The position numbers and the translations under genes are program-made. Below the pieces are notes generated by a model. That model made no database searches. It was not told the origin of the DNA and saw nothing but the letters and a program-made list of their open reading frames with translations. A stretch of 64,000 nt of DNA from Octopus vulgaris (taxonomy: Eukaryota): positions 54,994,001 through 55,058,000 of the forward strand of contig OX597820.1 of the NCBI GenBank assembly GCA_951406725.2, given 5' to 3'. Shown in pieces: positions 284 to 44,880 of the stretch; position 1 is the first letter of the stretch, and each line of letters opens with the position of its first letter.

Positions 284-346
284 TCATAGGTCTGCAATCT
301 CATTGACCGGCCCGGTACATGTTGTGATAATACGGTTAATCTCTTC
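284..346 (-). CDS. GnRH: oct-GnRH / corazonin-type precursor, second coding exon (EEINRIITTCTGPVNEIADL*)
   Basis: Acceptor tttacttctttcag|GAA at 347/346, phase 0 and in frame with the previous exon; 20 codons then TGA at 286-284. Completes an 89-aa precursor matching the octopus GnRH precursor C-terminus as I recall it. Not in the ORF track. Confidence 0.95.
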   Translation of the reverse strand, partial: EEINRIITTCTGPVNEIADL

Positions 347-1692
347 CTGAAAGAAGTAAACAATATTGAATGTAAATATGCATGTTAAGCTGGAACAAAC
401 GGGTTTAATTTAAAAACTACTGAGTGAGAATCAAAATTGAGCAGCTAGTAGGAACTCACCAGATATTCACCCAGTACTCACTGTTTATTCTCTTTTATGT
501 ATGTCATTTGTATCTGCAAGCTTACTTGAATTTAAATATGTATATGCAAACATGTAATGCATAAGTGCAAATATGTATATGCAAACACATAGCTTTAACC
601 ACCCAACATATGTGTGCGCTAAAAAGGGGGCCTCTTCTTCATGGTCATTCAAATTGCTAGAAATCTAAATTTTCATCAAATCACACTATATAGTTTTTTA
701 AAAAAGGATGACACATTGTATAATGCAGTCTTAGATACACATGATACCAGAAGAAAATCTTTGATGGAACATTGGTCAGATAATAAAAAAGTTGACTCTG
801 AACATCAACAACAACAACAATTTATAAATATACATTTTTTTCATTCAATTCAATTCTAGTCATATAATAAATTTAATGAAACTAAATTTTATTATTTTAC
901 ACCCAGTTCATCATGTTTCTATATACCTGGGTGGTATCAGTTAATTTTACAGCTGGGTATGTACCTCCCAAATTCCTTTCACCAAAGTATGTGTTGCTGT
1001 TCCTAACCACTCCAGTTTATCTTTACTTTCTTTCCTTTTTATTTTTGACTACTTACCCTCCTGACACCCTTGAACCATATCAGGAGAGACGTAGCTGTTA
1101 CAATCATAGTGAAGGCAACCTGTCTACAATCTTGGTTGTTCTAAGTTGCAAATGAGGGCCCTGAATCCAAGTTAGCATCTGCAGTGCTGTACTGCAATAA
1201 GACACAATGACTTTTTTTTCTTTGATGGGAAGTGTAGGCCTAATATGCTGCCTAACTTATCACCATTCCCTGGCAGAGTTATGTTTAGCTCACATGCACA
1301 ACAAAATGCTTCATAACATTAACAGTTTACACTCAAAGCCGTTTAGTCAATAGTGTAGCACTTAAACTGTACAGCCATTGATTTTTAAACACTTGCTTTA
1401 GAATATAGATTGTTATGTATTATAGATTTTGTATAATAATCTGATAAAATACATATCTGTTAGGCTATACTGAATTTTCAACCAAAATTTGACATTGTAT
1501 ATAAATTAAGTTTTGTTGGTTCTAAAATAAAGCTGTTACAGAAGAAAGTTATCTAAAAATTTGTAACTCCCTGCCTCCCAAACAAATCTTTCAGAGACTA
1601 TCCACATTAGCAAGGTTTTAAAAGCTGTAAAGATATACTGAAATGGACAACAAATGACAAAAAGAAAATTATGAAGGATATGCCGAACTTAC

Positions 1693-1899
1693 ATCTAAAA
1701 TTTTTTCTATCAAAGCCTTTGTTTGTTGTCTGAAGTGACACTGAATGTCTGAGAGTGCACTACGTTTACCTCCGGGGTGCCATCCATTGCTAAAGTGGTA
1801 GTTTTGTGCTTGAGTCTGCAGACACAAAGATAGCAGCAACATGGAGAATATGAAGAAAGCCATTTTTCTGGAGCTGGTTGTTGATGCAATAGCTGACAT
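1693..1899 (-). CDS. GnRH: oct-GnRH / corazonin-type neuropeptide precursor, first coding exon (signal peptide, mature peptide, GKR site, start of associated peptide)
   Basis: ATG at 1899 gives MSAIASTTSSRKMAFFIFSMLLLSLCLQTQA-QNYHFSNGWHPG-G-KR-SALSDIQCHFRQQTKALIEKILD (69 aa). Hydrophobic signal peptide; mature peptide at 1806-1771 is the known octopus GnRH dodecapeptide; amidation Gly plus KR. Ends at phase-0 donor GAT|GTAAGT (1693/1692). Upstream acceptor ctgctgtttatttcag|ATC starts the exon at 1934. Confidence 0.98.
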
Positions 1900-3024
1900 A
1901 ATGATGTTTGCTGGTAGAATTGGATAAGTTAGATCTGAAATAAACAGCAGAAAGCCTGAGAGGAAGTTTTTATGAAATGATGTAAGATAGCAATACATGT
2001 TTTCAAGAGAGAATCTCCGCACTTTGCTGCGGTGATAAATACTGGGAACCGATTTTGGCATGAACTTATTGCTCAGAAGTGTGGTATTATTTATGGTCCC
2101 CTACCTTTTTAAAAAAAAAATTAAAAATCGCACTACTTGGTTGTAGATTGTGTTATGTATATTGAACTCTCAATATTGCACTCTAGATTAAGGCAGTAAA
2201 TTAGTGTAATTATTATTAGTGTAATTATTATATGTAAGAGGCCAGATACATCCAATTTCAACATAAAACATGTAGAATATTTGGGCCAGATATTACTGGT
2301 TTAAATACTAAAGGGTTAAGCTGTTATGTAGTTGGAGATATATTTATCTCCAATAACAGCACCATATTTATCATCATTATCATCTGCTTGTCTAAAATTT
2401 ATAGTCTGTTAGCTGAATGTATTTTACTATAGTTATCATCATCACTGCCACATGCTGATGTTTAGTGTTTATTTAAACTGGAATTATTATTGTACAGATT
2501 TAGTTTTCTTCTGTGTACATGGTGTTGATATGTGAATGGATTATGCAGCTATTCATATATGTATATAACACAAACTACAGATCTCTCTCCCTGATAATAA
2601 ACTACAGATCCCTCTGTAGGAATTTGTTGCTATATATATATATATATATATATATCAGAAATACTAAATTTCTAAATCTCTCGTAGAGACATGTATATAT
2701 ATATATATATAAAAGAGTATGTTGTATATATGTTTTTCTCTATGTGTGTTGGGTATACAAATTGCTATATCTGTGTGCTAGTGGATGCATATTGTTGTAT
2801 ATATGTATTGAAATGTGTACTGTATTTTATATAAATTGTTATATATGTGGTTTAGATATGCACATTGCTGTATGTGTGTGCTGGTGTGTGGCACATGTAT
2901 GAAAGCAATCTCTTGGACAAATGAAATGATCAACAAAGCAAAACAGACACTGCTGTACACATTAACCTTTTGACAGTTGAAAAGTTTTTTTTTGTTTTGT
3001 TTTTATGTTCCTGTTATATGAAAG

Positions 3025-3530
3025 CCAGTGAGTTGGCAGAATCATTAGCATGCCAGATAATATGCTTAGTAGCATTTCGTCTGTCTTTACATTCTGAGTT
3101 CAAATTCCACTAAAGCTGACTTTGCCTTTCATCCTTTCAGGGTTCTTAAAATAAGTACCAGTTGTACACTGGAGTCAATGTAAACAATTGCCCCCCCACC
3201 CCACCGCCGCTACAGTTGCTGCCTTATGCCAAAATTTGAACCCATTATTTTCCTGTCACACACACACACACACACACAACATTGATGTTCATTATTGGTA
3301 GATGAAACTAAAGCTTCACTGCATCAAGTCTGAAACATTCAACGGGCAAAATGCTTAGCAGTATTTCACCCGTTGCTACGTTCTGAGTTCAAATTCCACC
3401 AAGGACAACATTGCCTTTCATCCTTTAGGGGGCCAATAAATTAAGTACCAGTTGAGTACTGGGGTTGATGTGACTGACTGCCCCCTTCCCCACAAAATTC
3501 AGGCCATGTGCCTATAGTAGAAAGAATTAT
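3025..3530 (+). mobile_element. Two tandem copies of tRNA-derived SINE family A
   Basis: Shared ggcagaatcattagca...ttctgagttcaaattcc...ctttgcctttcatcctt...aagtaccagtt with (ATT)n tail. Confidence 0.8.
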
Positions 3531-3549
3531 TATTATTATTATTATTATA

Positions 3550-4150
3550 TCAACCCTTGCATTCTATTGAGGGTTAGTGGTGAGCAAGACTGATGATGTT
3601 GAAAAGACTCTAGGCATCAACGAAGAGAAACTTAACACTTTGTACTGGAAGACCTACAGCCTGAGAAGTGTGGTTGACTTCCATGAATCCCTGGCTTAGC
3701 AGTGCTACGAGGAGAGCATTATCAGGTTGGGGAAAAAACTGTACAGAAATGGAAATACTGTCAGCTGGGCCTGTCTAAGATGTATGCTGAGTAATGAAAC
3801 CACACTGTTTGCACATATTCAGTTCCAAACATTACTGATTTCTGGAGTTATGTCAAACAGTTGCTGTCACATAAAAGACATGGTTCTTAGCTGAGTCTAT
3901 TATGAGGATTACTTTGCCATCTTCCTTTGTCCAAGAAGGATAGGCAGTTTTCTTCTGCTAGTGGTTATAGTAAAAGAGATGTACTGTAAGGTATGATGGA
4001 TATGACCAACAGGTTTGAAGGTAGACGCTTTGCTTTTCAGCCAAGTTCTTAACTTCTTCAAGCTTCATTTGAAGAGGAAGGTAAGGGTTGAGAGGGAGGT
4101 GTCATCTTCCAGAAAATATGCTGGAAAGTAGAAATAGTTGTCTGGGGTTG
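3550..4150 (+). mobile_element. Decayed L1/Tx1-type LINE 3' fragment in GnRH intron 1
   Basis: Broken frame SLA*QCYEE...KLYRNGNTVSWACLRCMLSNETT...AH resembles the zf-RVT CxxC..ET..H zinc knuckle region; stops and frameshifts. Confidence 0.55.
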
Positions 4151-5289
4151 TCAAAGTTATCTGGTATATGTGGGGATTTGTTCCTTTTTTGACCTCAGAT
4201 GGTTGTCCCCTATTGGGACATCTGTTTCATTTTCATATTTTCTACAAAAGTATTACATACTTTTGCTTTCTATGTTGGCTTGATTTCATACAAACATACA
4301 TTTAGTAATTTGTTTCTGTAATATTGCCTTCATCTACTGCGCTTCTGGCAAATAAGAAATAACTTTTATCATCATTATGAAGGGCAAAAACTGTAGACAG
4401 GCTAAATACCATTTAGCAGTCAATTACAGTCCTCCTTGTTCTTAGTTCAAACTTCATTGGATTTGACTTTGATTTTCATCATTGCAAGATTGATGAAATA
4501 AAGTACCAGTAAATTACAAAGTCAGTTGAATTGACTGTACTTTTCCCCAAAATATGTGGTCTTCTATCGAAATTAGAAATTAGTATTATTGAAGTTTGTC
4601 ATTTGTTACAAACAGTAGAGCACCAGATTAAATGCTTTGTAATATTTAGTTTCATCTCTGAATTTTGAATTGAAATTTCCCAATGATTGAATTTATCTTT
4701 TAGGGTCAGTAAAATAAGCATAAGACATAAGCCAAGATTAATACAGCTGATTGACTGTTTACCCTCACCCTAAAAATCCTTGGTTTTTTGCTAGTATTAA
4801 AAATTAATGTTAGGATTAGAAAGTATAATGGAGTATATAAAATAGTATATAAACTAAAATCTTCCAGTATTTAGTTCAAATCCTGCCAGTGTAGGGCCTT
4901 ATTCTTGGGTTGATTTGTAAGTATCAGTAGTATGCTGTGGTGAATTCAGTTGGCTACACAATTTCCCTATAAATACATGGCCTAATGATAATTATATATG
5001 TTATATTATAGACTAAACTGGATACTATTAAACACTTGAGTTGGATTTCAAAAGCGAAAAGTATTGAGCTTGATTCATTAATGCATTTTGTACCATTCTT
5101 CCCTCTGAATAAGATATTGGTGTTCAGAATGTAGTTGTTGTGTGAACTTTAAACAAATAATTTGGTGTGAGAAGATATTTATATATAAATTAGTAAGAGA
5201 GAAAGAACGAGAATTAGAATACAGTAATTAAATCATATAATATCAGCTAAAGAAAATGCAGTGTTATGTAATATCCTTTCTGCAATACG

Positions 5290-5490
5290 CACAAGGCCTG
5301 AAATTTTGTGGAAGGAGGCTGGTTGATTACATCAGCTCCAGCATTCGAACTGGTACTTATTTTATCAACCCTGAAAGGATGAAAGGCAAAGCTGACTTCG
5401 ACAGAATTTGAACTCAGAATCTAAAGGCAGAAGAAATGCTGTTAAGTATTCTGTCAAGTGGGGTAATGTTTCTGCCAGTTTGCCTCCTTA
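5290..5490 (-). mobile_element. SINE family A copy
   Basis: Reverse complement of the family A core (ctggtactta...aaaggatgaaaggcaaag...gaatttgaactcagaa). Confidence 0.8.
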
Positions 5491-5722
5491 TAGTGTGATG
5501 TAATATAATTTTAAAAAATTTTTAGTGGAAGCGTGGATTAGAAAACTCCAAAATACATATAGTATAGAAATAGCCCTCTTGTTTCTCTTTTTTTTAAGAT
5601 AGTTATTGAGAAGGAAAATCTATATGTGAAGTTAACAAATCAAGGTATAAGAGAGAGAGAGATAGAGAGACCATGTAAAAGAAATTTTGTTTTTTTAACA
5701 AAGGAAGATTTTGATATTTTAC

Positions 5723-5779
5723 CTTTAGTGTGGAACTTGAGTTTGTTCTATGTATCAGGTTCAGGACGCTGTTCAGAGT
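5723..5779 (-). other. GnRH: Probable non-coding first exon (5' UTR) of the GnRH/corazonin gene
   Basis: Non-repetitive 57-nt segment between an Inr-like TTCACTCT and a donor AAAG|GTAAAA (5723/5722), just downstream of a TATA-like box. Would splice to the acceptor at 1934 (intron ~3.8 kb). Confidence 0.7.
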
Positions 5780-5890
5780 GAAGGAATCTCCTCAAAGTGG
5801 TTCCTTTAAATAGAGAGATCTTGTCGCATCATCACCATCACTACAAGAACCACCTATTCTTCAGTGCTCCCGCCCAAACTGTTGCATAAA
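5775..5890 (-). promoter_or_regulatory. Putative core promoter of the GnRH/corazonin gene
   Basis: TATTTAAA at 5812-5805, ~33 nt upstream of Inr-like TC(A)CTC (A at 5779); GC box GGGCGG at 5875-5870; C/EBP/PAR-bZIP-like TTGCATAA at 5882-5889. Confidence 0.6.
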
Positions 5891-6474
5891 TCTAGAAACA
5901 AACACTGACAACAACAACATCAACCACAACAACAATAATACTGATGCAGTATAAGCAATAGGTGGTCATGATGACAATGATAATGATGATGATAGAGATG
6001 AGGATGATGTGCAAATGTATTATTTAGCAACAAAGGTGGGAAGGCCATGGAATTGCCCAAACAAATCATTTCTGACATTGTCAACCTGGTGGTGGTGGAG
6101 GTGTCAATGATGCTGCATTTTTGATGATGTAGTGTTGTTGTGATGGTGAAAGAGGTGAGTTAAGGAAAGTGAAAGTTAGTGGATTGGGTGGGTGTGGGGT
6201 CTGAAATTTTTATGTGTCTCTACTGCGTATGTATGTGTATTATGCCTGTATTCACGAATAATTGTTTTTATGTGTGTGTCTTGGTATATGCTTTTATACA
6301 CACACACACACACACACACATATATTTGTATGTATGTCATGTTACTCTTACCATAATTGATATCCATTTGTTTTTTTCCATACATAATGCATAATAGAAC
6401 TATGTAACATGCCTAGGTACATATATATTTGCATGTATAAGCAAATACACATATACACACTTATATAAATAAAG

Positions 6475-6510
<36 letters not shown>

Positions 6511-7072
6511 TACACTTATATAAATAAATACACATACATGTGTGTGTGTGTGTGTGAGTGTATTTTATGTATGTATGTAAACATACACATAAACATACAT
6601 ACAAAAGAGATGGAATTATGTCCCTCCCCACCTTATAGAATTTTTCAGCTCCACCTCCTCATTGTTGGTGATGCAGCATGCTACTGGTTTGTGTCCATGT
6701 GATGAGGATGCAGTCAGAGTGCAGGCGTAGATGCCTGTGGAGAGGTGTGGCAGAACTGTAGCGAGGAAGAAGGAAAAGGAAGATGAGGAGGGAACTTAGT
6801 GCTGTGGGTTGTCTTTATACTCTCTGGCCACTGGTCAGTCACTTGTTCTCGGTACATGCATACACACACACACACACATACACACACAAACAAACACACA
6901 CATTCAGTTATACACCCATTCATTTATAACACCCACTCATTTGATCACACCTTCACATACACATAAACAGACACATGCACACACACATCAATGCATACGT
7001 ACATGCGCACACACACACACACACAGGGCAAGGTAAATATTTATGTACTTGTGAAAATGTAGAAAATTCAAA

Positions 7073-7129
<57 letters not shown>

Positions 7130-7157
7130 CATGTGTGTACACGCCTGCGTGTGTGTG

Positions 7158-7204
<47 letters not shown>

Positions 7205-9104
7205 ATATATATTTATATACACATACATACATGTCATTCAATTATAGTGTAAGTGGTTGTTTACATACACACACACTGACTAACAAACACATTGTTATAT
7301 AAAAGCACACATTTAAAACAACGACACGTACGCATATACAAATATATGTCAATAGTATAATAAATGCATAATCTTTATAAATGCGTGCACACACACGCAC
7401 ACACAAAAAGACATGCATGTATGTTGTAAATGGTTCTGCATCAATTTCAACGATGAATATTTCTTTTGTTTTGATCAACTAAACTAACTAATCTTTGAAT
7501 TAGAATGTAGGTGGCTGTGTACTCCACAGATGCATATACACTTAATTTAACTCTCAGCCAGGATTGGCATGGCAGTGTGTGACAAGGCTGGTCCTTTGAA
7601 TTATAGATTCTGTCCATCCAGTAGGCTTCTATGGTTTGCGTCTACACTTTTTCACTTACAAAGCTTGAGTCGACCCAAGGTGATTGTAGAAAGTACTTTG
7701 CCAAGATGCTGAGTAGTGGGATTGAACCTTGGATCTCATGAATGCAAAGTAGAATTCTTAACTACTTGGATAGTCTACATCCTGTTATACACATTAAACA
7801 AACATATACCTGCATATTGTATATACTAAAAACAACCAAAAAAACACCCTTACAACTACGCGTATGCAAAAATATAAATATACATATATAGTTATCAATA
7901 CATTCATATTGATAGATACATGATCATCACCATCACTGTCATCATTTTAAAGTTTGCTTTTTCCACATTTGCATGGGTTGGATTGAGTTTATTGGGGTGG
8001 ATTTCCTATGGCTGGATGTCCTTCCTATTGTTAGCCCTCACCTGCTTCTAAGTAAGGTAATATTTCCCCTTCCTCCATGGTTAGACATATTTTTGCAGAA
8101 TATTAGAAATGAATGACTCTGCTCATATGAGAGTGAAAAACTGATTCATGACTTACGCAATGCCAAGACAAGGGGACAAACAAGGGGCACACACACACAC
8201 ATGCACACTCAGAGGTTTCTTTTGGTTTCCATCTATCTAATCCACTCACAAAGCTTTAGGTGGCACAGAGTTGTAATAGAAGACACTTGCTTCCAGGGTG
8301 CCATGCAGTGGGATTGAACCATGGCACTGAAGCTATGTGGTTGGGAAGCAACCATATTTACCATGCAACCATGTCTGCACCTATATATATTCATGTCTTA
8401 ATTGATTAGATCAGGCCATTGAATAATAATACATGAAACAAATTCACCCACGTTGTCACAACAGATGTAGCACCCATGAAAACTACACAAAACATATATA
8501 TTGTATGCTACAAAAATAAGTCATAAGCCAGAACAGTGCATGTGTCTCACCAAACTACAAACTCGTAGTTGTATTACAAAACCACATGAATGAAAATTCT
8601 TCTTTTCAACATGAAACCACAAACTAGCAAACCACAGAATGTACCTCAGGAAACAAGTGTCCTGTACAAAATCACGGAATTTGTAAATTTTGTAACTAAG
8701 ACTTCATAACATTGGATACAAATCTTCAACTCTCATCCATTTAACTTGTATTTACAACAAGGAACTTTCACAACTCCTGATAACAGTCATGAAAATACTA
8801 GTTGGCAATCTACAATTTGACAGAATTCTTCAAAAAAGAAAAGAGAAAAAAAAAGATGAATAACTGTGTGAAATTTCCTAAGATTGAATAGTTGTATGAT
8901 GTTTATGTGTATGCATGTGCGTGTGTATATATCATCACCATCATCATTTAACATCCATGTTCCATGCTGGCTTAGGTTGGATTGCTTAACAGGTTCCATT
9001 GGGTCAAAGGACTACATCATACTCCAGTGTCTGCTTTAATATGGTTTTTTTGACTGGATGCCCTTTCTAACATCAACCAATTTATATTGTGTTCTGGGTG
9101 CTTA

Positions 9105-9154
<50 letters not shown>

Positions 9155-9399
9155 TTATATATATAATATAATATAATATAAAGAGAGGAGATTGTCATCC
9201 ATATAATGATGATCATTTCACAGCCTTAGTCATGGAAAAATAATTTATTTTAGTGTATAATAGATAATAAGTATCGTATATGCAGTATTAATATATACAT
9301 TATTTATATATAGCAGTTGTTTGATTTATAAATTAATACGGGTAAAAAAAGCTTGTTCATCAGGTCAAAGAAAATTACGGTTATTTATATATGAATACA

Positions 9400-9788
9400 T
9401 AGTATATATTCTTTTATTTGTTTCAGTAATTTGTCTGTGGCCATGCTGGAACACTGCCTTAATGAGTTTTTTAGTCAAAGAAATTGACCTCCAGCACTTA
9501 TTCTTTGTAAGCCTAGTACTTATTCTCTTGGTAATTTTTGCTGAACTGCTAAGTTACGGGGGACATAAACGCACCAACATCGGTTGTCAAGTGATGGTGG
9601 GGAGACAAGCACAGACACACACATATATGACAAGCTCCTTTCAGTTTCTGTCTACCAATTCCACTCACAAGGCTTTGGTCAGCCCAAGGCTGTAGTAGAA
9701 GACACTTGCCCAAGGTGCCACGCAGTGGGACTGAACATGGAACCATATGGTTGGGAAGCAAGTTTCTCATCACACAGCCATGCCTGCA

Positions 9789-9790
<2 letters not shown>
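9400..9790 (-). mobile_element. tRNA-derived SINE family B copy
   Basis: Reverse complement of gcaggcatggctgtgtg...ttcagtcccactgcgtggcaccttgggcaagtgtcttctacta...gagtggaattggtagacagaaactgaaag. Confidence 0.8.
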
Positions 9791-9823
<33 letters not shown>

Positions 9824-9999
9824 AAATTCAGTCATTCTATAGAGATCCATGTAATGGTGGAGGTGATAAAATTAATCAATTAAAAACTGCTGAATACAGC
9901 ACACCACCATGGCCACTGCCTGAAACTGATATAAAAAATATAAGATAAAGAATTTATTATTATTATTATTATTATTCAGTAGTCTTATTTTTATCAGAT

Positions 10000-10290
10000 G
10001 CTTTCAATGCACTACCAAGTACAGCTGTGTGTGCCTTGGGGATATGCTGTGGTTTGTTGTGGTGCTCTTATTTTCATGTATTGAAAGTGCTTTACGTAGG
10101 ATGTGTGCGGTACCTAGTAGTGCTGTTTTCTGTATGTTATATACATTCATAAGTCCTAATGTTTTTGTTATGTATTTGTCTGAATGTTTTTTTAATCATG
10201 CCTAATGCACCTACTATTATAGGAATTGTTTCTGTTTTTAGGCTCCACATTCAAGTTACTTCTATTTCCAAATCTTTGTATTTTAAGAGT
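10000..10290 (-). mobile_element. R4/NeSL-type (restriction-like endonuclease) LINE 3' fragment
   Basis: Minus strand reads KYKDLEIEVT*MWSLKTETIPIIVGALGMIKK, the typical RLE C-terminal motif; flanked by (ATT)n. Confidence 0.75.
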
Positions 10291-11032
10291 TTTATTATTA
10301 TTATTGTTGTTACTGTTATTATTATTATTGTTGTTATTATTATTATTGTTGTTATTATTTTTTGGTTGGTTTTTGCTTTTTATTTGTACAAGTTGACTCC
10401 AAGTCTCACCCAGAGGCATCAAGAGACAACAAGTTAGAAGTTCAAGTCAGTCTTATGACTAGGGTACCATATTTTTGATTTTGCAAAGAATATTGTTCTT
10501 GAGATTGTCTGTCAAAACATAAGAAAATTAAAATTATTATTATTATTATTATTATCTTGGTTTGGCTCAGATTTGGTCTTATTCCTGGTAGGATTTATGG
10601 GGGTAACAGGTTATTATTATTATAATTATTTCTATTATTATTATTATTATTATTGTTATTGTTGTTGTTGTTGTTATGGCTGGGTTCCAACCTAGGCCAA
10701 AGAATATATGCACATCTGTTTAATGAGTTGGATGTTTTACAAAGATATTTTATTGCACCAATCATAAACACATGCACTGGTTCTGTTTCACTTCTTTGTT
10801 ATTTGCCATTTGGTTGGTTGGTTATTTGACCAACCGACTGAGCAATTGATTGCTTAATTAGACAATTAAATAATCAGTCAGTTGTCTGTCATTTACAACC
10901 TTATCAATGACACGCTCAGTCTCCTCTGAGACTGCTTCAAATCTGTTTGTCTTCGAATTGATACCTATGTTTATGTAGTTGTGTGGTCATGTACTTGAGA
11001 AGGGAAGGGTGGGAGAAAAGGATGTATATTAT

Positions 11033-11220
11033 ACTAGCTTCAGTTGGTTTGATCTCTAATTATTTACTAGTTTCAATTAGTTTGATCTTTGATTGTACAC
11101 TGGTTTGATCTCAGATAGTATATTAGTTTCAATTAGTTTGATCTTTAATTTATTGCTAGTTTCAGTTTGTTTGATCTCTGATTGTATACTAGTTTCAGCT
11201 GCTTTGATCTCCGATTGTGC
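11033..11220. repeat. Degenerate ~33-bp minisatellite (~6 units)
   Basis: Consensus actagtttcarttrgtttgatctytrattgtat; an inverted partial unit at ~11362-11382. Confidence 0.8.
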
Positions 11221-11927: not shown

Positions 11928-11982
<55 letters not shown>

Positions 11983-15130: not shown

Positions 15131-15206
15131 AAAAACTGGTGTAAAAATGAATGAAACTGAGGAGTTGTACATTTAATAAGTATTATCAATATTAACCATG
15201 TACAAG

Positions 15207-16646: not shown

Positions 16647-16680
<34 letters not shown>

Positions 16681-28484: not shown

Positions 28485-28532
<48 letters not shown>

Positions 28533-28760: not shown

Positions 28761-28859
28761 TGTGTATGTGCATTTAAAGGTTGTTTACATGTGTGTCTGT
28801 GTACACGGATAGATAAATAGATTAATAGACAGAAGAAATGTTTATATATATAAGTACTA

Positions 28860-33333: not shown

Positions 33334-33374
<41 letters not shown>

Positions 33375-34112: not shown

Positions 34113-34280
34113 CAGTCACTCTGTCTACCTTGGTTACCAAGTCCCCCTGGTAAATAAGTCACTCTGTTCATTCCAGCTGATCAAGTCTCTTTTTCCACTC
34201 CAGCTGACTAAATGTCTCTGTCTACTCAATCGGGCAAAGTCCCTCTGTATTCTCCAGCTGTCTAGTTCCTCTGTTTCCAG
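34113..34280. repeat. Degenerate 27-bp tandem repeat
   Basis: aagtcactctgttcattccagctgatc / aagtctctttttccactccagctgact / aaatgtctctgtctactcaatcgggca / aagtccctctgtattctccagctgtct. Confidence 0.7.
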
Positions 34281-35218
34281 AGGATCTATCCCTTTAACTG
34301 CTTTTTGATTATCAACTTTCTAAAGATTGATAGTCAGTTCAGTTATTAATTCACAGTTTTTTTGTTTTTGTTTTTTGTCTATATGCACATACATATTCAG
34401 ATATTTACAGAAAAAGTTTTAGGATCTGGTGATTTAACAGTGGATTTTTTTTTTTTTCCTTTCCCTAACACTCTTCCACTGCGAGACATAAATGGTATTG
34501 GTGATATCTATTTTTCAGCAAGATATGTTAAAATACCTTTATGCTAGTGTGTTTTTGATTGAATGTAAGCTTAGTTAACATATAAACCTTGAATGTAGGG
34601 CTGTCATCTCTGACCAGTGGCCATACCATAATCCATTTGCTTTCCTTTACAATCATCAACTATATAATTTAATCATTAGTCAGAAGATCTTTGTGATCTA
34701 TCTCACCCTTCATGATACAATCCACTATCAACATTTACATCTTTAGATTACATTAGACTAACCCAGCCTCAAAGGATTTCTTTGGCCAACCCTTTTCTGT
34801 ATTCCTGTATTCTCTGAACTTTTTCTGCTCTGTTTTTACTCTGGCTGGTACACTTTTGAACACCCTCCAGTTTGGTATGCATGTGTGTGTGTGTTCCCAG
34901 CAGACCACCCTGCTCTGTTGGACACACCCTGCCTTGTCTTCTGTGTTATGTCCTTAGTCATCATCGACAGTGATGGACAAATTGTGTGTGTGGCATGACA
35001 GATTGTTACAGTAAGGTCTAGTAAATGGGGCCAGTCATGGTACCATGAAAAAAGAATGGTCCAGTAAATCATTTTGATGATAAGCTATACCATTCTGTAA
35101 CTCCTGGTAAATTAGCATGATGCTCCTCTGTAATATGTAGATTCTCAAATCCCCAGCAGGTGCAATTGTGGTGATTAACTGAACCATTTAATTTAAATGT
35201 AACCTCATCCCTCTAAAC

Positions 35219-35542
35219 CAAGGGTTCTCAAACCATTTTTTATCTATGGACCCCTTTGATTACCATTTTATTCTGGTGGACCTCTGTAGCTATTCGATGT
35301 TTAAAAACTAGTTTTATAGAAACTTCTTTCAAGATTTCTATTTCGTTTTTCACACACTAACTTCTATAGATTGAACTATGTAAAATGTTAGAGAAACATG
35401 CAAAAACATACATCTAAAGTAAACTTTTTCAGGGGCCCTCAAAATACTATTGTGGTTTCCCAGTTTACTATTTTGTTGTATGCACCCCAAAAATCTTATA
35501 TGAACCCTCATGGGCCATGTGAAGCCCAGTTGAGAACCACTG
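35219..35542. mobile_element. hAT (Charlie-like) MITE with 8-bp target-site duplication
   Basis: TIRs CAAGGGTTCTCAA / TTGAGAACCACTG; identical 8-bp flanks CTCTAAAC at 35211-35218 and 35543-35550. Confidence 0.9.
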
Positions 35543-36179
35543 CTCTAAACAGTCTTTGTTGGCAAGTGTGCATCTTCTTCACATCTTGCCAAGTACTGCT
35601 CACAAAATTCTACTCTTTGGTCTGGAATCATCTTTATACAGAATATGGGCAATTCTTGGAATGTAACTGCTTGGCTTGTAGGTTTAAAAGTCTGGTTTCT
35701 TTATAGACAAACCTTGTGTTATATGATACTTCAACATCATCTCTCTCTTGCTCTCTCTCTCTCTCTCTCTCTCTGACCAGATAACCAAGTACCTCCTCTA
35801 TAACAAGACACCTGTTTCTCTCTGTCACACTCTAATCTTCTATGATCTAACTCAAGACCACCTACTCAAATACCACAGGTTCTTTGTCTTGCAAGTTACT
35901 TGGTGACCCCGTAAAACACATACAATCCATATTGTAAAGAGGTTGGCACTTGGAAAGGCATCCAACAGTAAAAACCATACCAAAACTGACCTCACCTTTG
36001 CATGTGCCACGTAAAAAGCACTCAGTCCACTCTGCAGGGTGGCTGGTGTTAGGAAGGGCATCCAGCCGTAAAAAGCCATGCCAAAACAGACACAGAAATC
36101 TGATGCAGGCTTCAGTGTGGCCAGCTCCTGTCAAGCCGTCCAAATATGGAGAGCAGATATTAAACAATGATGATGATGA

Positions 36180-36213
<34 letters not shown>

Positions 36214-39200
36214 CTGTGTGATCGAAAACTTTTCAGGAATTGATTCTTTTTCCATTACATCACCAACTTTTTTTGTTTCTGTGGCTAATAATTTTACTTT
36301 GCATCATGCTTTAAGTATTTCCATATTGAAACTTGATTATCATCATATTTTTATCACTTGTATGTATGTTTAACTTTTTATCACCGTCATCAACTGTGTA
36401 ATTTTATTTTTCCTCCTCAATTACACTTGAGCAGAATACAGACAATTGCACAAATTCAATGGAAAGCTAGTCAAACTAATCACCAAAAGATTCACTGCAT
36501 ATTTAACTTCAAGACAATTTCTTTTATCGGAAGATATATGATGATTATTGAAAGTCCTCTTTTTGCCTCAACAGAACTCAGAGCAATGGTATTAATGATA
36601 TATTTAGTCCTTTGTGCTGTTGTTGGACTTTCATAATTATGAAAGCTTTGGGTAACATTTTTTATATAATCACGGAAATGATTAACACAGATTTTATAGT
36701 GAAATTGTTTCTAGAATTATTACAGGTTTTCTTCAGCTATTTCCCAGGGGATAACAACTTCATTAAGTTCATCAAGAATCTGAGTTAACATCGTTTACCA
36801 ATACAAACATTTCACTGCTAGTTTTGTATGGATTATTGCTTGAGTGTATGCTATGAAATTCCATCAACCTTAGTTTTATCTGTTTTATTATTACATCTTA
36901 TAATCCTTGGTGTGGAAAAATTATGTTTTTAATATTTGTTAAACTCAATGTTCCAAAATACTTCAGTTGCTAAATCCTTGTTTTCAAAGCCCCCACCCTC
37001 ACCCCCATTTGCTTTGAAATTTTTTAAATGATTTGATCACAGGCATGGCTATGATTAAGAAGCTTGCTTTCCAACCACATGATTTCGGGTTCAGTCTCAT
37101 TGTGTGGCAACTTGAGCTTGTGTCTTCTACTATAGCCCTAGGCCAACCAACTAAAGTCATGTTTGTGGATTTGGTAGAAACTGAAAGAAGCCCATTGTAT
37201 ATGTGTGTTTGTGTGTGTCTGTGCATGTTTGAGTCTACCCTTGTTTTGACATCATGTGATGGTTATAAATGGGTATCACTGTCATACAAGTGATGTTTAT
37301 TTCTATTCTCCTATGAAAAACGTTTGACCAAGGAGAAATGTTACCTCTTTTGGAAACAAGTGAAGGTTGATGGCAGGAAAGACATCAGACTGAAGAAAAT
37401 CTGTCTCAACAGATTATGGCTGACTCATACAAATATTATCCTCTTCATTAATTTTTTCACTTTTTGATAAACTGAATATTTTGATTGTTAAGTGTTTAAA
37501 TAAAAGGAAAGTTCTTGTAATATATCCTCCAGAAAAGATATGCTGGGAAAATGGTTAGCCATTCTTAGAAATTTTCCCTTTGTAGAAAGAAATTCAAACA
37601 ATCCTAGGTAAGAGGGCACAGGCATGGCTGTGGTAAGAAGCTTGCTTCCCAACCACATGGATCTGGGTTCAGTCCCATTGCAAAGCACCTTGGGCAAGTG
37701 TCTTCTATAGCCTCAGGCTGACCAAAGCCTTGTGAATGGATTTGGTAAACAGAAACTGAAAGAAGCCCGTCATATGTGTGTGTGTCTTTGTGCTTGTCCT
37801 CCCATCACTGCTTGACAACCAGTGTTGGTTTGTTTACATCCCTGTAACTTAGTGGTTCAGTAAAAGAACTGATAGAGGAGTCGATTTGTTCTCTCTATCG
37901 ACTCCTTCTGAGATTAAAATTGCCTGAAGTCAACTTTGTTTTTCATCTTTTCAGGGTTGATAAAATAAGTACCATTTGAGCACAGGAATCAATGTAATTG
38001 ATTTATCTCTTTCCTTAAAATTGCTGGCCTTGTGCCAAAAGTAGAAAGAATTATATATAGTTACTAATAACTTTTATTTATTTATTTATTTATTTTATTT
38101 GCTAGCTTATTTTATTTTGATCTTTTCATTTTATCTTATTTTGGATAACCTGGAGCTAACAGCCCAAATGTGAAATTTCCAAAAATATTATTCGAATATT
38201 TCATTAGAAATTTTATTTTAAACACATTATTATAATACAAAGATAATACAAAGCAAATTTTAATTTAAGCACATAATTATAACACAAATAGAGATTTCAT
38301 TGAAACAAGTTATGATAATACAAACAAAAAGTAAGAATTAAGAATGATATTTGCCTGTAACCATTTTGAATCAGGCTGTCAAATGACGCACAGACTCATT
38401 GGCGGTAGTAAATTTTTAAAAACTAAGCTTGATGCTTGCAATATGATTGTGTAGAAATATATATTGTTGCAACTGCAAGTGGTTGTAAGTCACATAAGTT
38501 GCAAGTTGATGAGTGTCTGTCAGTGTGTGCTCGTGGTATGAGATAGATTTACATGCTGATAGTAATACATAAAATAGTAAAGTCTTTGGGTAGAATGCTT
38601 TGCGGTATTTGCTCCAACTCTTTTGCACAAACACACAAATTGAGGGCAGTAGATGTGCAAAATTGTAAAAGGTTTCAATAAAATGCCTTGTATCTGTTCT
38701 GGCCCTTTGCAATCTACAGCAATGCCTGCAATGACACTGTGACACTGGTGTCAAGCTTTATTGGCTCATGTCTGCAGCCTTTCCCTTGCATAGACATTGG
38801 TGGCACAAGAAGGAGAGATTTGTATGCATAGATAACTGTCAGTCTTCCTCTAAAAATCTTGTCCACATCTGTGCATGCATATACAAATGCATGGTCAACT
38901 TTGACAAAGAGAGGCCCTACATACATGAGTAAATGTGTGTGTTTGTGTGTGTAAACATACATACATATAATCCCTTCTACCATAAGCTCAGGGCCTGAAA
39001 TTTTGGAGGAGGAGGCTAGTCAATTGCATCAACCCAGTACTCAACTATACTTGATTTATTATTAAGGTTACCTGTGCAACTTGTAAATATACAGTTCTTT
39101 TTCCTACTTGCACTCCATCATCACATGACTAAAAAGAGGCAACGATCACGCTGGGATGGTGCTCTTATAATTTAATGCAAAAAGAAAACCTAGAAAAAAA

Positions 39201-39886
39201 TGAATTTAATTATTTTATCATGACTTTCATTCCTTTTTCAGTGATCAGTGATTTAATGTGGAAGTTTAAATTGTCATATAATTTGAATAATATTGTCAAA
39301 GAAGTAGAATTTTTTAATTTATAAAGAGACAATATTTAAGCAATAACAACAAATACAACAAATTTTATAAGTATTGAAAGCTCCTTTTTTTGTATAACTA
39401 CTCCCCTGTAACATTATTTTTTGGCATAATATCAAGTAGGTCTTTACAATTGCAAAGTTATTATTAAGAAGACAATTTTTACTGAAGTTCTCTCTCCATG
39501 AGCTACTAGCATTTTTTAAACCATTATACAAAAAGCATATAATATGCAAATCAAAATATTATTGAGTGTCAAATGTGAACAGTGCCAACCGCAAACATAC
39601 ATAAATAATGACTAATCACATACCTCTGAAAAATTAACAAAATTAATAAAGGTTAAGAAGTCTGTTTTTAAAAAAGGTCTTCCATATCAAATTGATATTT
39701 TTAATTTGAAATTATTGGAAAAATGTTCACGTTTGCACCCCAACTGGAAATTATGCATTTGATATGGGGAAATGTTTGATTTTTAGAACTCTACAGAGTT
39801 CTATGATTTAATTTTAGTAATTGCTTTGTGACTGAATCCTACCATAATACATACATCCACACATATATACATGCGCACATTATATA

Positions 39887-39937
<51 letters not shown>

Positions 39938-39938
39938 A

Positions 39939-40120
39939 CAGGTGATACCTTGCAGTACAAGTTCAATTCGTTCCATGACGGAGCTTGTTTTACGATTTAC
40001 TCGTTTTACAAATCAATTTTCCCCATTGAAATTAACTAAAATATAGTTAATCTATTCCAGCCACCCCAAAACCACCCAAAAATAATTTCTTATGGGTTTT
40101 AAAACAGAAAAGGTGCTGCA
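39939..40120 (+). mobile_element. Tigger-like DNA transposon left-end fragment
   Basis: TA|CAGGTGATACCTTGCAGTACAAGTTCAATTCGTTCC...TTTTCCCCATTGAAAT resembles pogo/Tigger MITE ends; no partner TIR found. Confidence 0.45.
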
Positions 40121-40280
40121 CGGAATTTTGTCAGTGAATAGGTGATGGTCTCAAAGCGACAAATAAATTTTGACAAATTAAATTTAAATGTTGAAGTGAA
40201 TCTAACGGATTTTGTGTGTTTCTTAAATGGCTTTTAAACACCTTCCACACTGCAATTGTTATATATATATATATATATAT

Positions 40281-40869
40281 GGTGGTTGTCTACTCTTTAT
40301 GCATAGTTTGAGCATCTCCTGTACCTACACCTCAGCACCATCATGGCGTCTGATGTGGCTTTTTAAACCAGACAATGTTCTGAAAAGACACCCACATAGA
40401 TTGCACATCTGATGTGGACCACCAAGAGCTGCAGATAAGTTCTGATCTTTGTGGATCTTAAGATGTCTTTTGAGGCCTCTGTTGGATTTGCAAACCTTCT
40501 AGCATACACTGCATTCGAAGGTGTGCACAGACATATAGGCAGAATAGTTGGTGGAGGTTCGTTTTCCATGGGTTCACAGATGAGATTTGAGCCCAGCAAG
40601 AGACAGGCATGGTCTGTCACAAACTGTGCACACAAAAGGTCATTGTCATTTACCTTCTTGATCACAACATTCTTCCTTAGATCTCTTTTGAGTTATCCTG
40701 GCCTCTTCAAATGCTTTCACTCCACTCCACACTTTTGTTCTCCATCCAACTTGATTGGAAGCAAGAGTTTCTATGTTTTCTGAATCCATTCCAAGGGACT
40801 TCATAGTAGTCCTTATGCCAGCCTTAAACCTTTTTTTAAGTTTATGCCGTTTCTCCTCTGCAAGTTCAC
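40281..40869 (-). mobile_element. RTE-type LINE, non-inverted 3' segment
   Basis: Minus strand: (G)ELAEEKRHKLKKRFKAGIRTTMKSLGMDSENIETLASNQVGWRTKVWSGVKAFEE, then C2H2-like C..CGCLFRTLSGLKSHIRRH; ends in (TA)n. Confidence 0.8.
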
Positions 40870-41236
40870 AAAAGGATGGAAAAATACAGGTGCGAATTAA
40901 AAGGGCAGCAAAAGCATTTGGTGGCTTGGAGTCACATGTTTGGTGCCAGTGATGTATAAATGAGAATACAAAGCTGGCTCTTTACAAATCATTTGTCTTA
41001 CCATCCCTGTTGTAATCTTGTGAAACATGGACTTGTTATGAAAGGCATTTTAAATTGTTAGAACAATTCCACCAAAAATGCCTTCATTGCATTTTAAACA
41101 TTAAATGGAGTTCTTTTACTCCATTGCATCTGCTGACATCACCTCAATTAAAGCTATGATTTTGAGGAGCCAAATGATATGGTGTGGCCATATTGTTCGA
41201 ATGGTTGATGAACGCATGCCAAAAAAGCTGTTTTAT
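40870..41236 (+). mobile_element. RTE-type LINE, inverted upstream segment
   Basis: IQVRIKRAAKAFGGL...TKLALYKSFVLPSLL*SCETWTCYERHFKLLEQFHQKCLHCILNIKW...WCGHIVRMVDERMPKKLFY, typical RTE/BovB-like post-RT region. Confidence 0.85.
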
Positions 41237-41249
41237 ATATATATATATA

Positions 41250-41805
41250 CATGAGCAAAACGCCCTCCTCCCACCCGTCCAATGGACGGTGCTGAATCAT
41301 ATCTGCTGAATAAAAAGCAATTAGTGTTTTCTTTTCATTAAAAATAATTAAGCATGCCTTTATTTCAATAAAATTTTTGGTTTTGTTAAATGAAGTTAAG
41401 GCAAAAAAAAACTTCTTGAGAAACCAAATAGTCTTTCCTTCATGCGAAGTTTGAAGAAAATATCTCTTTTGCATCTTACTTTTTTGGTCTCTTAAATATA
41501 CTGCATTTTGTGGCATTATTTCAAGCCAGCCAGTTTTTTTTTGCACAAACTGCATGTGCATTTTTCTCGTGTACGCATAGTATCGATCGCAACAGCTGAT
41601 GTACTTGTGCATACAAATGCACATTCCCATGGCTTTATCAATCGCATTCTCACCTGGAATCGTCTTTTGTAATTTTTTAAAGACTTATACACACCCTGAT
41701 ACCGTTGGTATCTACATGTCAAATTTGAGCGCAATCAGATGGAGGATGCCCGAGATCCTTGAAGACACACACACAGACAGACAGAACGGATTTTATATAA
41801 TAGAT
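41250..41805 (+). mobile_element. Possible non-autonomous Helitron/Helentron-like element
   Basis: CpG-retaining block with short hairpin (ccgtccaatggacgg) near one end and (CA)n(GACA)n followed by ttttatataatagat at the other, an end structure seen in DINE-1/Lep1-like elements. Confidence 0.4.
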
Positions 41806-44782
41806 TTCCGAATTTGTATGAATGTGTATAGAATAATATATCAGTTGAATAAAGTTAAAACATGGTCTGGTTTTCACATTTTTTTTATTATGGTATTTTA
41901 ACATCAAAAAAATATTTTGTAATGTTCATAAAGTTCAATTAGCACTTTCATACGTTCATAGTAATCATCAGATTTCAAAATGTATTTAACTGACAGTCAA
42001 GTTCTTGACAACTGTAGCACCTCTTAGAACACTCCAACAAGCTGAGTTTTTGGAATATGGTTTTGGCCAATCTGCTTGCAGCTTAAACATCATCGTTTTC
42101 TAAGCGTACTGATATTCTATAATTTGTTTATATTCAAATGTTAAAGATATTTTTTAATCCAGATCATTAACTGGTTGTTATTTCCGTTCAGAACAGGTTT
42201 GAACATTTTAATAAACTGTTTTTTTTTTATCTTTCTTCCAACCTCACTTGTGTTCTGTAGTTTGTGGAAAGGAAAAAATCATATATATAATATTATATAT
42301 ATATATATATAGCATGCATTATACTCTCAAAGTGGTTGGCAATATGAAGGGCATCCAGCCATAAAAACCATGCCATATCAGACTGGAGTCTGGTGTAGCC
42401 TTACATCTTGCCAGCCCTGGTCAAACTGCTCAACCCATGCCAGCATGGACAACAGACATTAAATGATCATAATGATGATGATCCATGTATATGTATGTAT
42501 ATTTGTATGCATATATGTATGTATATATATTATACACACATACACTCATCTAGTGTGTTTGCTCATTTGTTGTGAATAATGGCTGTACAAATGATGTTAT
42601 TTACTTGCAGTCAACTGCAAAAGCATGTTTGGTCTTCTTAACATGTTATGCGATGTTTGTAAAGAAAAGACTATTTCATGTGGTGTCATTTATTCTCAGC
42701 TCTCCATTTAAAAATGTTTGGATTCATTGTTCAACAAATTTATTATTAGTTCTCCTGGAAACAAGTGGGTGACAAGAATTGCATCTGGCCATAGAAAACT
42801 GCTGTAACATACTCATCTGACCCATTCAAGCATGGTAAACCAAATGTTAAATCATTGCTGCAGCTGCATTTGTTCATTTAAGATTCGATTTTTTTTTTTT
42901 TTACAGAATTTACTTAATTGTTCTTAATCTCAAAAAAAATGTTTCCATCTTCTTTAGTATAGAAACATTAGGGGGTTTTATCTCCAAAAAGTAGATACAA
43001 ATCAATGTTTGTAGTCATATTTTTTTATATTGATTAGCTTCTGTACATTTATTTTCATTTGAACCCTTCATGTTTCCAAACTCTATCCTCTGGATATGGA
43101 GTAAGTTATATGTTATATCACTGGGGCAATTTTTTTGTGTTTTTTTTTTTCATCCTTGCTTTTTATCCATCCCTAATACACTATCATTGGTACTGTGTTT
43201 TTTGTTTTGAATTTTTTTAATATTCCTATTTCTATTTCTAAATCTTAAAAAGTTTCTAAAATTAGAATTTCGTTCAAGGAGATATTTTCCTCAACCAAAT
43301 TTTGTAACATCTGTAAGAAAGCAAATGTTTCGTTATATTTTTGCTTCTGTTGTTATTGATAATGATGTCTGATCTCACTACTAGTCTGTACAAGTAGCTT
43401 CCATATTTTAATGTCTCTATCATTTTATTATTTTTGCTATGAAGTTGTGACAAAGACTCTTGAAGTTGATGTACAGTATAATAATTTGTGTGTGTATAGA
43501 CAATACTAGTCAATCTGAGATGATGAGGCCATACAAATGTTTCTTTGTAGGTTTCATACAGTACAAAGTCATTGTAGTTGTGGCTGTGTGGTAAGAAATT
43601 TACTTCCCTACTACAACTACATGGTTTGGGGTTCAGTCTCATTGCAGGGCACTTAGGGGTAGTATCTTCTACTACAGCCTTGGACCAATCAAAGCCTTGT
43701 GATTATGTTTGGTAGACATAAGAGTAGATGTTAAATGATGATGATATATATATGTTATTTTTTATTAATATTTAGTACAAGCAACAAGTGACTCAGTTGC
43801 TGAGAGTTTCATGCATTAGCTACTTATTAAATCTGTATATGTATATATGTATGAATGAATAAATGAATATCTCCTTGCTTTGACTTCATGTAATAGTTGT
43901 AAACATGTGTCACCATCATGTAAGCAGTGCCTGTCATTTTCAGCCTTCTGTAAAGTCATGTCTAGCCATGGGGGAATATTTCCTTATTTGGAAACAGCTG
44001 AGGGTTGCCAACAGGAAAAGCAGCCACCTGTAAAAAAAAAACCCTGCTTGACTCATACAAACATGGAAAAATGAACATTAAAACAATAATGATGCAATCA
44101 TTGCAGGTCATCTTGCTTACGGTTTTTGTTAGGTGTGCAAAGCAAGTGACTTAACATCTGGTGAGCTGTAATCGTTTATTAAATTCTTCCATAATATAAG
44201 TTTTTACAAAAGAAAGACAAAAAAAAAGAAAAAAAGTGGAAAAAAAAAGAAAAAAGTAAGAGAGAAAAAAAAACATCAATTCAGTACCGAGTTCTTCATT
44301 GGTTGCGCACCCATCTTGTATAACTGAAGCAAAATCTTACTGGTCTATGTTTGCTTCTCATGTTCTAATAGAGTACTGTTCATCAAAAGTCTTTCTTCTT
44401 ACCATGCTTTTCTAGGATCAATCCCTAAGTATGCCACCTTGGGCATGTGTCTTCTACTGTTGCAATAGATTGATCAAGATGTTGTGTATGAAATGTATGC
44501 ATGTGTTTTGCTACACAAAGCAATAGTTTGTAAATTTGAATTGAGCAGCAGGAAAGGCATTTCCAGATTACCAGCCTTTTGTTATTATTGTTGTTGTTGT
44601 TGTTGAAGAAGCTACTTCAGACAGACAGGCCCAAGATATTGATATATGTTTTAGCAAATCCTGGTAAAAGTGCCTTGGCCCTTTTCAGTTCAAATTTAAA
44701 TTTCACTGAAGCCTTCTGCATTTACTTGAACTATTGTTTCCTGTATTGAACTAATATTTAAAAACTGTGTTCTGTCTTTCAG

Positions 44783-44880
44783 ACTTGTGATAGTAATTTG
44801 AAACAAAAGACTGAAGTGGTTGCCAAACTAGAAGAGAAAACTGAACAACTAGTAAATACACTGAAAGAAATGGAGAAAAA
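44783..44880 (+). CDS. RUFY: Internal coiled-coil exon of a RUFY-family (RUN and FYVE domain-containing) gene
   Basis: tctgtctttcag|ACT...GAAAAA|gtgagt; 98 nt, phase 0 to phase 2; encodes TCDSNLKQKTEVVAKLEEKTEQLVNTLKEMEK. Aligns without gaps to the vertebrate RUFY2 segment [32 protein letters not shown] (recalled; 11/32 identical, most others conservative). Not in the ORF track. Confidence 0.85.

What the first reader, a model, noticed from the sequence alone, without database searches (positions are those of the whole stretch)
284..44880. GnRH/corazonin neuropeptide gene appears nested antisense inside a giant RUFY intron
Seen: a complete minus-strand neuropeptide coding unit at 0.3-5.8 kb, and a plus-strand internal RUFY exon at 44.8 kb. 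I found no preceding RUFY exon (expected ...LEKDIHEKQDT...LRQQL...MY.KLQ, phase 0) in 1-44782. Established: RUFY proteins are Rab/ARL8 effectors, and RUFY3/4 couple endolysosomes to dynein-dynactin in neurons. Inference: the upstream RUFY exons lie left of the window, so the reproductive neuropeptide gene sits in a >44-kb intron of a vesicle-transport adaptor. This allows shared enhancers, transcriptional interference or sense-antisense dsRNA, and gives a synteny marker for the GnRH-versus-corazonin orthology question.
Basis: partly seen in the sequence, partly recalled or inferred. Interest (0 to 1): 0.8.

Follow-up and report, generated by a model that had tools for sequence, protein, structure and literature searches.

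The report
Corazonin gene anciently nested inside RUFY
The octopus hormone gene known as oct-GnRH (a corazonin-type peptide) lies backwards inside one 56-kb intron of the trafficking gene RUFY, a clam-like bivalve shows the same layout, and the pairing likely dates back over 500 million years, which makes it a likely landmark for finding this hormone gene in molluscs and their relatives.

Summary
Confirmed and extended. The window lies on an Octopus chromosome (G000:C7). Sixteen plus-strand exons over 211 kb rebuild a 639-aa RUFY protein exactly, with GT-AG at all 15 introns. The whole oct-GnRH/corazonin (CRZ) gene lies antisense in intron 10 (55,847 bp, the longest). It has four exons; the 3'-UTR exon lies left of the window.

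The layout is not octopus-specific. A clam-like bivalve contig (L024) carries CRZ antisense, 5.2 kb from RUFY exon 11, with no exon 10 between them. CRZ and RUFY records share a contig length in 10 of 10 comparable species (chiton, bivalves, gastropods, a brachiopod). Their accession numbers are 1-11 apart in 4 of 4 molluscs, but about 10,400 apart in a starfish. The scan noted the same nesting earlier in a probable annelid (e1-7908766, not checked here).

Most likely this is an old lophotrochozoan nesting, kept because breaking it would break RUFY. No functional coupling is shown, and the exons do not overlap. Both genes are well known; I found the nesting in no searched paper. It is a new member of a known kind (synapsin-Timp-like). 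It marks CRZ within Lophotrochozoa but does not settle GnRH versus CRZ across Bilateria.

The parts
5723..5780 (-). CRZ/oct-GnRH exon 1 (non-coding). The 5' end is approximate; a TATA-like TATTTAAA lies at 5811-5804 and the GT donor at 5722.
   Evidence: Joint 1934/5723, skip 3788, in runs X4 and X18 with 44 letters on the short side; sequence
1693..1934 (-). CRZ exon 2: ATG at 1899, signal peptide, mature peptide QNYHFSNGWHPG starting at 1806, GKR cleavage and amidation site
   Evidence: (E 4.8e-39)
281..346 (-). CRZ exon 3: last 20 codons, stop at 286-284, donor 3 nt after the stop
   Evidence: Joint 345/1692, skip 1346, CT..AC on the + strand, in X1, X4 and X5
1..280 (-). In-window part of CRZ intron 3. 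It leads to exon 4 (3' UTR), which lies outside the window at G000:C7:54992645 and leftward (window -1355 to about -1763; AATAAA at about -1716).
   Evidence: The loose end of an X5 contig (409 letters beyond 281) matches L004:8616-8645 exactly behind an AG acceptor. Only its first 30 letters were matched.
44783..44880 (+). RUFY coding exon 11 (98 nt, residues 416-448, coiled-coil region)
1..44782 (+). In-window part of RUFY intron 10 (whole intron -11064..44782, 55,847 bp, GT..AG, phase 0; longest of 15 introns, 27% of all intron length). The preceding RUFY exon 10 (168 nt, residues 360-415) lies outside the window at G000:C7:54982768-54982935 (window -11232..-11065).
44881..64000 (+). In-window part of RUFY intron 11 (33,740 bp; exon 12 at 78621-78707)

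Best explanation
The corazonin-type (oct-GnRH) gene sits whole and antisense in intron 10 of the single RUFY gene, and this is likely an ancient lophotrochozoan nesting that has been kept because it is hard to undo, not because the two proteins work together. Each gene would be transcribed from its own promoter in opposite directions, and RUFY splicing removes the 56-kb intron with the CRZ gene in it (structure shown; promoters inferred). Any inversion or translocation breakpoint between the two genes would cut RUFY. CRZ could leave only by being copied elsewhere with its control elements, which probably lie in the same intron (inferred). The pair therefore travels together through genome rearrangement, with RUFY as a bystander host.
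For: Octopus structure: 16 exons give P0007 with 0 mismatches in 639 aa, and all 15 introns are GT-AG. The exon 10/11 junction is present in 21 of 21 octopod RUFY protein records checked. CRZ and RUFY each match one locus in the genome. Bivalve contig L024 has RUFY exons 11 and 12 (98 and 87 nt, the same sizes as in octopus) on the strand opposite CRZ, exon 11 starting 5,161 bp from the CRZ ATG, and no exon 10 in the remaining 6.6 kb that holds the CRZ exons. CRZ and RUFY records share a contig length in 10 of 10 comparable species, including a 331,860-bp abalone scaffold and a 343,324-bp Lingula scaffold. Accession numbers or locus tags are 1, 2, 5 and 11 apart in Patella caerulea, Argopecten, C. 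virginica and Liolophura. Against coupling: no exon overlap, and no conserved intronic element above two control introns.
Against: Outside octopus, nesting itself is shown for only one 9.7-kb contig of an unnamed bivalve, and exon 10 lies beyond its end. The other species show linkage or adjacency only, read from contig lengths and accession order. Most gene overlaps in animals are short-lived, with only three kept between Ecdysozoa and deuterostomes (PMC2330155 section 6), so long retention may itself hint at selection. Expression of the two genes was not compared. A blastn of octopus against one bivalve cannot exclude diverged shared enhancers. Lingula has a second RUFY record on another scaffold with no CRZ record seen there.
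Confidence: 0.62

Rival explanations
1. The nesting is ancient and kept by functional coupling. Strong CRZ transcription in neurosecretory cells would interfere with RUFY elongation or isoform choice, or shared intronic enhancers would co-express a peptide with an endosome/vesicle adaptor.
For: Linkage is kept across molluscs and a brachiopod, although overlaps are usually not conserved. Intron 10 is the longest RUFY intron, with 42.9 kb between the CRZ ATG and exon 11. RUFY exons 9 and 12 are variably included. Overlapping human genes tend to be co-expressed (PMC2330155 passages).
Against: There is no exon overlap, and no conserved non-coding match above control introns. The exon 10/11 junction is constant in 21 of 21 records. 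The same spacer is only 5.2 kb in the bivalve. No expression data were obtained.
Confidence: 0.2
2. CRZ and RUFY are old neighbours, but true nesting is limited to some lineages such as cephalopods and some bivalves; elsewhere they are simply adjacent.
For: Accession order and shared scaffolds cannot tell nested from adjacent. Overlapping pairs often have adjacent, non-overlapping orthologues.
Against: The same intron and orientation occur in octopus and a bivalve. Moving a gene from beside to inside the same intron twice is unlikely (inference).
Confidence: 0.16
3. The arrangement is an assembly artefact or a chance insertion in one octopus genome.
For: Octopus introns are very large (209 kb in this gene), so chance nesting is plausible a priori. 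No read was laid across the RUFY junction.
Against: There are no gaps in 264 kb, the exons are colinear and exact, each gene has one locus, and the same layout or linkage occurs in other taxa.
Confidence: 0.02

Closest known systems
oct-GnRH precursor (O. vulgaris BAB86782 / Q8T8D2) and lophotrochozoan corazonin-type ('GnRH-like') precursors
   Same: 88 of 89 residues are identical and the mature peptide pQNYHFSNGWHPG-amide is the same. It belongs to the same profile family as the Lingula precursor labelled CRZ in PMC8557429.
   Different: The gene product is not new. What I did not find described is its position inside RUFY.
RUFY (RUN and FYVE domain) family, 'RUFY2-like' of molluscs
   Same: RUN (E 1.2e-37) and FYVE (E 5.1e-19) domains around a coiled-coil region. 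The best solved relatives are the RUFY3/RPIPx RUN domain and the RUFY1 FYVE domain. Identical to the O. vulgaris record P0007.
   Different: It is a single locus, so probably the pro-orthologue of vertebrate RUFY1/2/3 (inference, no tree built). Dynein-adaptor roles of RUFY3/4 are recalled knowledge and were not tested.
Synapsin-Timp nested antiparallel pair
   Same: A small secreted-protein gene nested antisense in an intron of a larger trafficking gene and kept across phyla (PMC2330155 section 6; PMC4860685 passage).
   Different: Syn-Timp is kept from fly to human. CRZ-RUFY appears limited to Lophotrochozoa: the starfish records are not adjacent, and arthropods could not be tested.
GnRH/CRZ-vasotocin-NPS synteny block of amphioxus, human and limpet
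   Same: Uses gene neighbourhood to trace GnRH-superfamily genes (PMC3969558; PMC10321317).
   Different: It involves other neighbours. RUFY has 0 occurrences in the PMC3969558 main text. The only neurophysin-family match in this genome is on another contig, C22.

Membership tests
Antisense intron-nested gene pair | All exons of the inner gene lie within one intron of the host, on the opposite strand | tested here: met
   Four CRZ exons (about 5780 to about -1763) lie within -11064..44782
Antisense intron-nested gene pair | Host exons on both sides are spliced together | tested here: met
   GT-AG phase-0 intron with an exact protein rebuild; junction present in 21 of 21 octopod records. These are database gene models; no reads were laid on the junction.
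Deeply conserved nested pair (Syn-Timp kind) | Same host intron and orientation in distant taxa | tested here: met
   Octopus and bivalve contig L024; exon 10 lies beyond the end of that contig
Deeply conserved nested pair (Syn-Timp kind) | Conserved across phyla | tested here: inconclusive
   Same 343,324-bp scaffold in Lingula, nesting not seen directly; starfish records not adjacent; arthropods untested
Corazonin-type precursor | Signal peptide directly followed by one pGlu...amide peptide and a G-KR site | tested here: met
   the signal peptide was judged by eye, no predictor was run
Corazonin-type precursor | Homology to precursors classed as CRZ | tested here: met
   The profile finds Lingula XP_013384764 (E 2e-9), labelled CRZ in the PMC8557429 supplement. 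Pfam Pro-corazonin does not hit P0014.
Corazonin-type precursor | Activates a receptor of the CRZ-receptor clade | not testable with these tools
   Literature only: oct-GnRHR is activated by oct-GnRH and clusters with insect CRZ receptors (PMC5592718 passages)
Corazonin-type precursor | Number of coding introns (one in CRZ, two in GnRH, for deuterostomes) | tested here: inconclusive
   Octopus has one phase-0 coding intron, but bivalve contig L025 shows three coding pieces. The two papers state the rule oppositely (PMC10321317; PMC4923880).
RUFY family | N-terminal RUN, central coiled-coil region, C-terminal FYVE | tested here: met
   RUN and FYVE. The coiled coil is inferred from composition and homology.
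RUFY3/RUFY4 subtype | Specific orthology to vertebrate RUFY3 or RUFY4 | not tested
   No tree built; single octopus locus, named RUFY2-like by the sources

The most novel reading that the evidence does not exclude
Corazonin entered RUFY intron 10 before molluscs, brachiopods and annelids split and has been held there for over 500 million years because the two genes are regulated as a unit. Transcription of the hormone gene in neurosecretory cells would tune the endosomal adaptor that hosts it.
Probability: 0.17. Interest if true: 0.75.

Novelty: new member of a known kind. Interest (0 to 1): 0.42.

Why it matters
Nested pairs that survive between animal classes or phyla are rare, and this one holds a much-studied hormone gene. 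RUFY exons 10 and 11 are far better conserved than the peptide precursor, so they give a positional way to find unannotated or diverged corazonin genes in lophotrochozoans. They could also tell which of duplicated annelid CRZ genes is at the ancestral site, and separate CRZ-type from GnRH/AKH-type genes in that clade. As a practical point, large deletions or silencing at the CRZ locus, and unstranded RNA counts, can be confounded by the host gene. It does not change what either protein is known to do.

Tried and rejected
RUN-domain search of the own genome: 3 matches, none on C7, because the domain is split over exons; replaced by a protein search.

First hand-set exon boundaries were wrong for exons 3, 4 and 12 and were corrected.

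Second GnRH/AKH-like peptide in the 264-kb region: the motif scan found only oct-GnRH. The genome search gave two weak extra places (E 2.2 and 6.6), not followed.

Conserved non-coding elements, octopus intron 10 against L024: best E 0.025, weaker than control intron 1 (E 1e-4, AT-rich); rejected.

Rfam at gathering threshold: 0 matches in the window.

A TATA-like site and donor at 6820-6632 (minus strand) as an alternative first exon: no joint listed and little or no cover in the 4 runs; left open.

No listed run is on record as RNA. RUFY splicing across intron 10 was not examined with reads.

Metagenome scan: 6 loci from 23 candidates. L024 was informative. L025 and L026 carry CRZ but are 2.6-3.1 kb and show no RUFY exon. 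L027-L029 look like chance matches. The prokaryote genome scan gave 3 weak loci that were not examined.

Arthropod test by accession numbers: RUFY accessions were obtained, but no matching corazonin accession was found (0 papers). Amphioxus RUFY XP_035671590 and GnRH XM_035819417 belong to different number series and were not compared. The search for an alternative RUFY first exon returned nothing and that script ended in an error.

Paper searches with no hit: corazonin + RUFY; 'RUN and FYVE' + GnRH + synteny; nested genes + octopus + intron + neuropeptide; corazonin + 'within an intron' + 'opposite strand'. In one search none of the 15 listed papers (of 93) contained RUFY2.
Full report
Where the window lies. 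It is G000:C7:54994001-55058000, + strand. The RUFY exon matches RUFY records of Octopus vulgaris, O. sinensis and O. bimaculoides, and C7 has the same length (128,554,073) as the contig of the O. vulgaris record. I infer O. vulgaris. Positions left of the window are given as zero or negative window coordinates.

The neuropeptide gene. The minus strand encodes an 89-aa precursor: signal peptide, QNYHFSNGWHPG, GKR and a C-terminal peptide. It differs from the published oct-GnRH precursor at residue 4 only and equals the O. bimaculoides entry. I laid 4 of the 24 listed runs; they are contigs whose RNA status is a guess. The joint 345/1692 appears in 3 of 4 runs and the joint 1934/5723 in 2 of 4. 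One contig continues 409 letters past position 281, and its first 30 letters match window -1355 leftward behind an AG acceptor, with AATAAA about 360 nt further on. The gene therefore has four exons: non-coding (about 5780-5723), 1934-1693, 346-281, and a 3'-UTR exon outside the window. It has one clear locus in the genome.

The host gene. I held 100 kb on each side of the window. Sixteen plus-strand exons from -96858 to 114386 translate to P0007 with 0 mismatches, and all 15 introns are GT-AG. A genome-wide search puts the strong matches of this protein on C7 in that order; matches elsewhere are weaker RUN or FYVE hits. The region has no N. Intron 10 runs from -11064 to 44782 (55,847 bp, phase 0), is the longest intron, and contains all four CRZ exons. 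The exon 10/11 junction is present in 21 of 21 octopod RUFY records examined, whereas exons 9 and 12 vary. The protein has RUN and FYVE domains, and its closest solved relatives are the RUFY3 RUN and RUFY1 FYVE domains.

Is it conserved? No other animal genome could be searched directly, so I used three routes.

(a) Direct DNA. A metagenome scan with a 38-sequence precursor alignment returned 6 loci. L024 (9,686 bp) has a CRZ gene on one strand (ATG 8275, next exon 8840). On the other strand it has RUFY exon 11 (3114-3017) and exon 12 (1620-1534), with canonical splice sites and the same lengths as in octopus, 98 and 87 nt. An exon-10 profile that scores the octopus exon at 107 bits finds nothing on L024. 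Exon 10 must therefore lie beyond the CRZ gene, which places CRZ in intron 10 in the same orientation. Exon 11 is closest to Mercenaria and Mya RUFY, so the contig is from a clam-like bivalve (inference). L025 and L026 were too short to inform.

(b) Contig lengths. A profile search gave 74 proteins. I looked up 15 precursor clusters in all and compared them with RUFY records. In 10 of 10 species with a contig length for both genes, the lengths are equal: Liolophura, Argopecten, Mytilus californianus, M. galloprovincialis, Haliotis rubra (331,860 bp), H. asinina, H. rufescens, Aplysia (2,126,268 bp), Patella caerulea and the brachiopod Lingula (343,324 bp, one of its two RUFY scaffolds). Magallana gigas and H. 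cracherodii lacked a RUFY contig, and cDNA-only and unnamed records had nothing to compare; these were left out.

(c) Accession order, where both records come from one series. P. caerulea locus tags SNE40_005553 (RUFY) and 005554 (CRZ) are consecutive. Argopecten has XP_069124530 and ...532, C. virginica XP_022319567 and ...572, and Liolophura XP_064606057 and ...068. That is 4 of 4 molluscs within 11 numbers. Chance is of order 1 in 1,000 per species (my estimate, no call), and accession order tracking gene order is my assumption. Routes (b) and (c) show linkage, not nesting.

Where it stops. Asterias rubens CRZ is XP_033633412 (PMC10321317 supplement) and its RUFY is XP_033643854-857, about 10,400 numbers apart, so probably unlinked. 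The amphioxus gene now classed as CRZ is reported between vasotocin and NPS genes (PMC3969558 passages; reclassified in PMC10321317 passages). Arthropods could not be tested. I could not check it and count it as a lead only. The ages of the cephalopod-bivalve and mollusc-brachiopod splits (over 500 million years) are recalled.

How it most likely works. Shown: two complete genes on opposite strands, one inside an intron of the other, with no exon overlap, so the mature mRNAs cannot pair. Inferred: separate promoters, and retention because any breakpoint between the genes cuts RUFY and CRZ would need to move with its control region. Octopus intron 10 and the bivalve intron share no sequence above control introns. 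The distance from the CRZ ATG to exon 11 is 42.9 kb in octopus and 5.2 kb in the bivalve. Transcriptional interference or shared enhancers remain possible, since long-lived overlaps are rare (PMC2330155 section 6), but nothing here shows them. I give 0.62 to ancient nesting with a bystander host, 0.2 to functional coupling, 0.16 to old adjacency with patchy nesting, and 0.02 to artefact.

Comparison with what is known. The peptide is the published oct-GnRH. Its receptor clusters with insect corazonin receptors (PMC5592718 passages), and recent work treats the group as corazonin (PMC8557429 passages and supplement; PMC6969523 passages). Coding-intron count does not help here: the two papers I read state the rule oppositely, and bivalve L025 has three coding pieces. 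The arrangement works like synapsin-Timp. Four searches for the nesting found no paper, and none of 15 listed papers contained RUFY2. The library lacks most subscription papers and the search does not cover supplements or figure images, so synteny figures naming RUFY could have been missed. RefSeq annotations already hold both genes in several species.

Papers seen. Passages: PMC3969558, PMC4923880, PMC5592718, PMC4860685, PMC6969523. Passages and section 6: PMC2330155. Passages and supplement parts or hits: PMC10321317, PMC8557429. All others: search listings only.

Verdict. The feature is real and, as far as searched, undescribed, but both genes and this kind of arrangement are known. It is a new member of a known kind, with interest 0.42.

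Noticed in passing
window 281/280 and L025:1065-1457: The octopus intron 3 nt after the stop codon may be the counterpart of the second coding intron of bivalve CRZ genes, which show three coding pieces. Coding-intron count is then unreliable for separating CRZ from GnRH in molluscs.
   Followed up: partly
protein P0158: An unnamed 466-aa precursor with about 11 tandem corazonin/AKH-like peptides, each followed by GKR (Pfam AKH 56.6 bits). Multi-copy precursors are unusual for this family (recalled). The organism was not looked up.
   Followed up: partly
protein P0223: A 362-aa ENA-only record on a 1.83-Mb contig with a CRZ-like peptide followed by a long repetitive, dibasic-rich tail.
   Followed up: partly
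Lingula records P0046 and P0236: Two near-identical RUFY loci on scaffolds of 936,639 and 343,324 bp; the CRZ record is on the latter. This may be a haplotype duplicate or a real duplication.
   Followed up: no
window 1935-2101: Contigs of runs X1 and X5 run from exon 2 into the 3' part of intron 1 (to 2101 and 2051), which suggests unspliced RNA, DNA, or a second start site.
   Followed up: no
window 108805-108843 (outside the window, right): An extra RUFY exon (TTDAV...PTIL) is used in some isoforms, and one O. bimaculoides record ends there without the FYVE domain.
   Followed up: no
window 16629-17075 and 17324-17887: A local duplication within intron 10: the same translated stretch occurs twice, about 700 bp apart, among AT microsatellites.
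   Followed up: no
window 40646-40981 (-) and 57822-58220 (+): Short frames that resemble decayed non-LTR retrotransposon ends (recalled resemblance); no Pfam match.
   Followed up: partly
window 29110-29815: A tandem repeat giving long open frames (repeating PPSMPSTFNALHLQC-like units) in intron 10.
   Followed up: no
G000:C22:32072698-32072904: The only neurophysin-family match in the genome is on C22, not on the CRZ/RUFY contig C7.
   Followed up: partly
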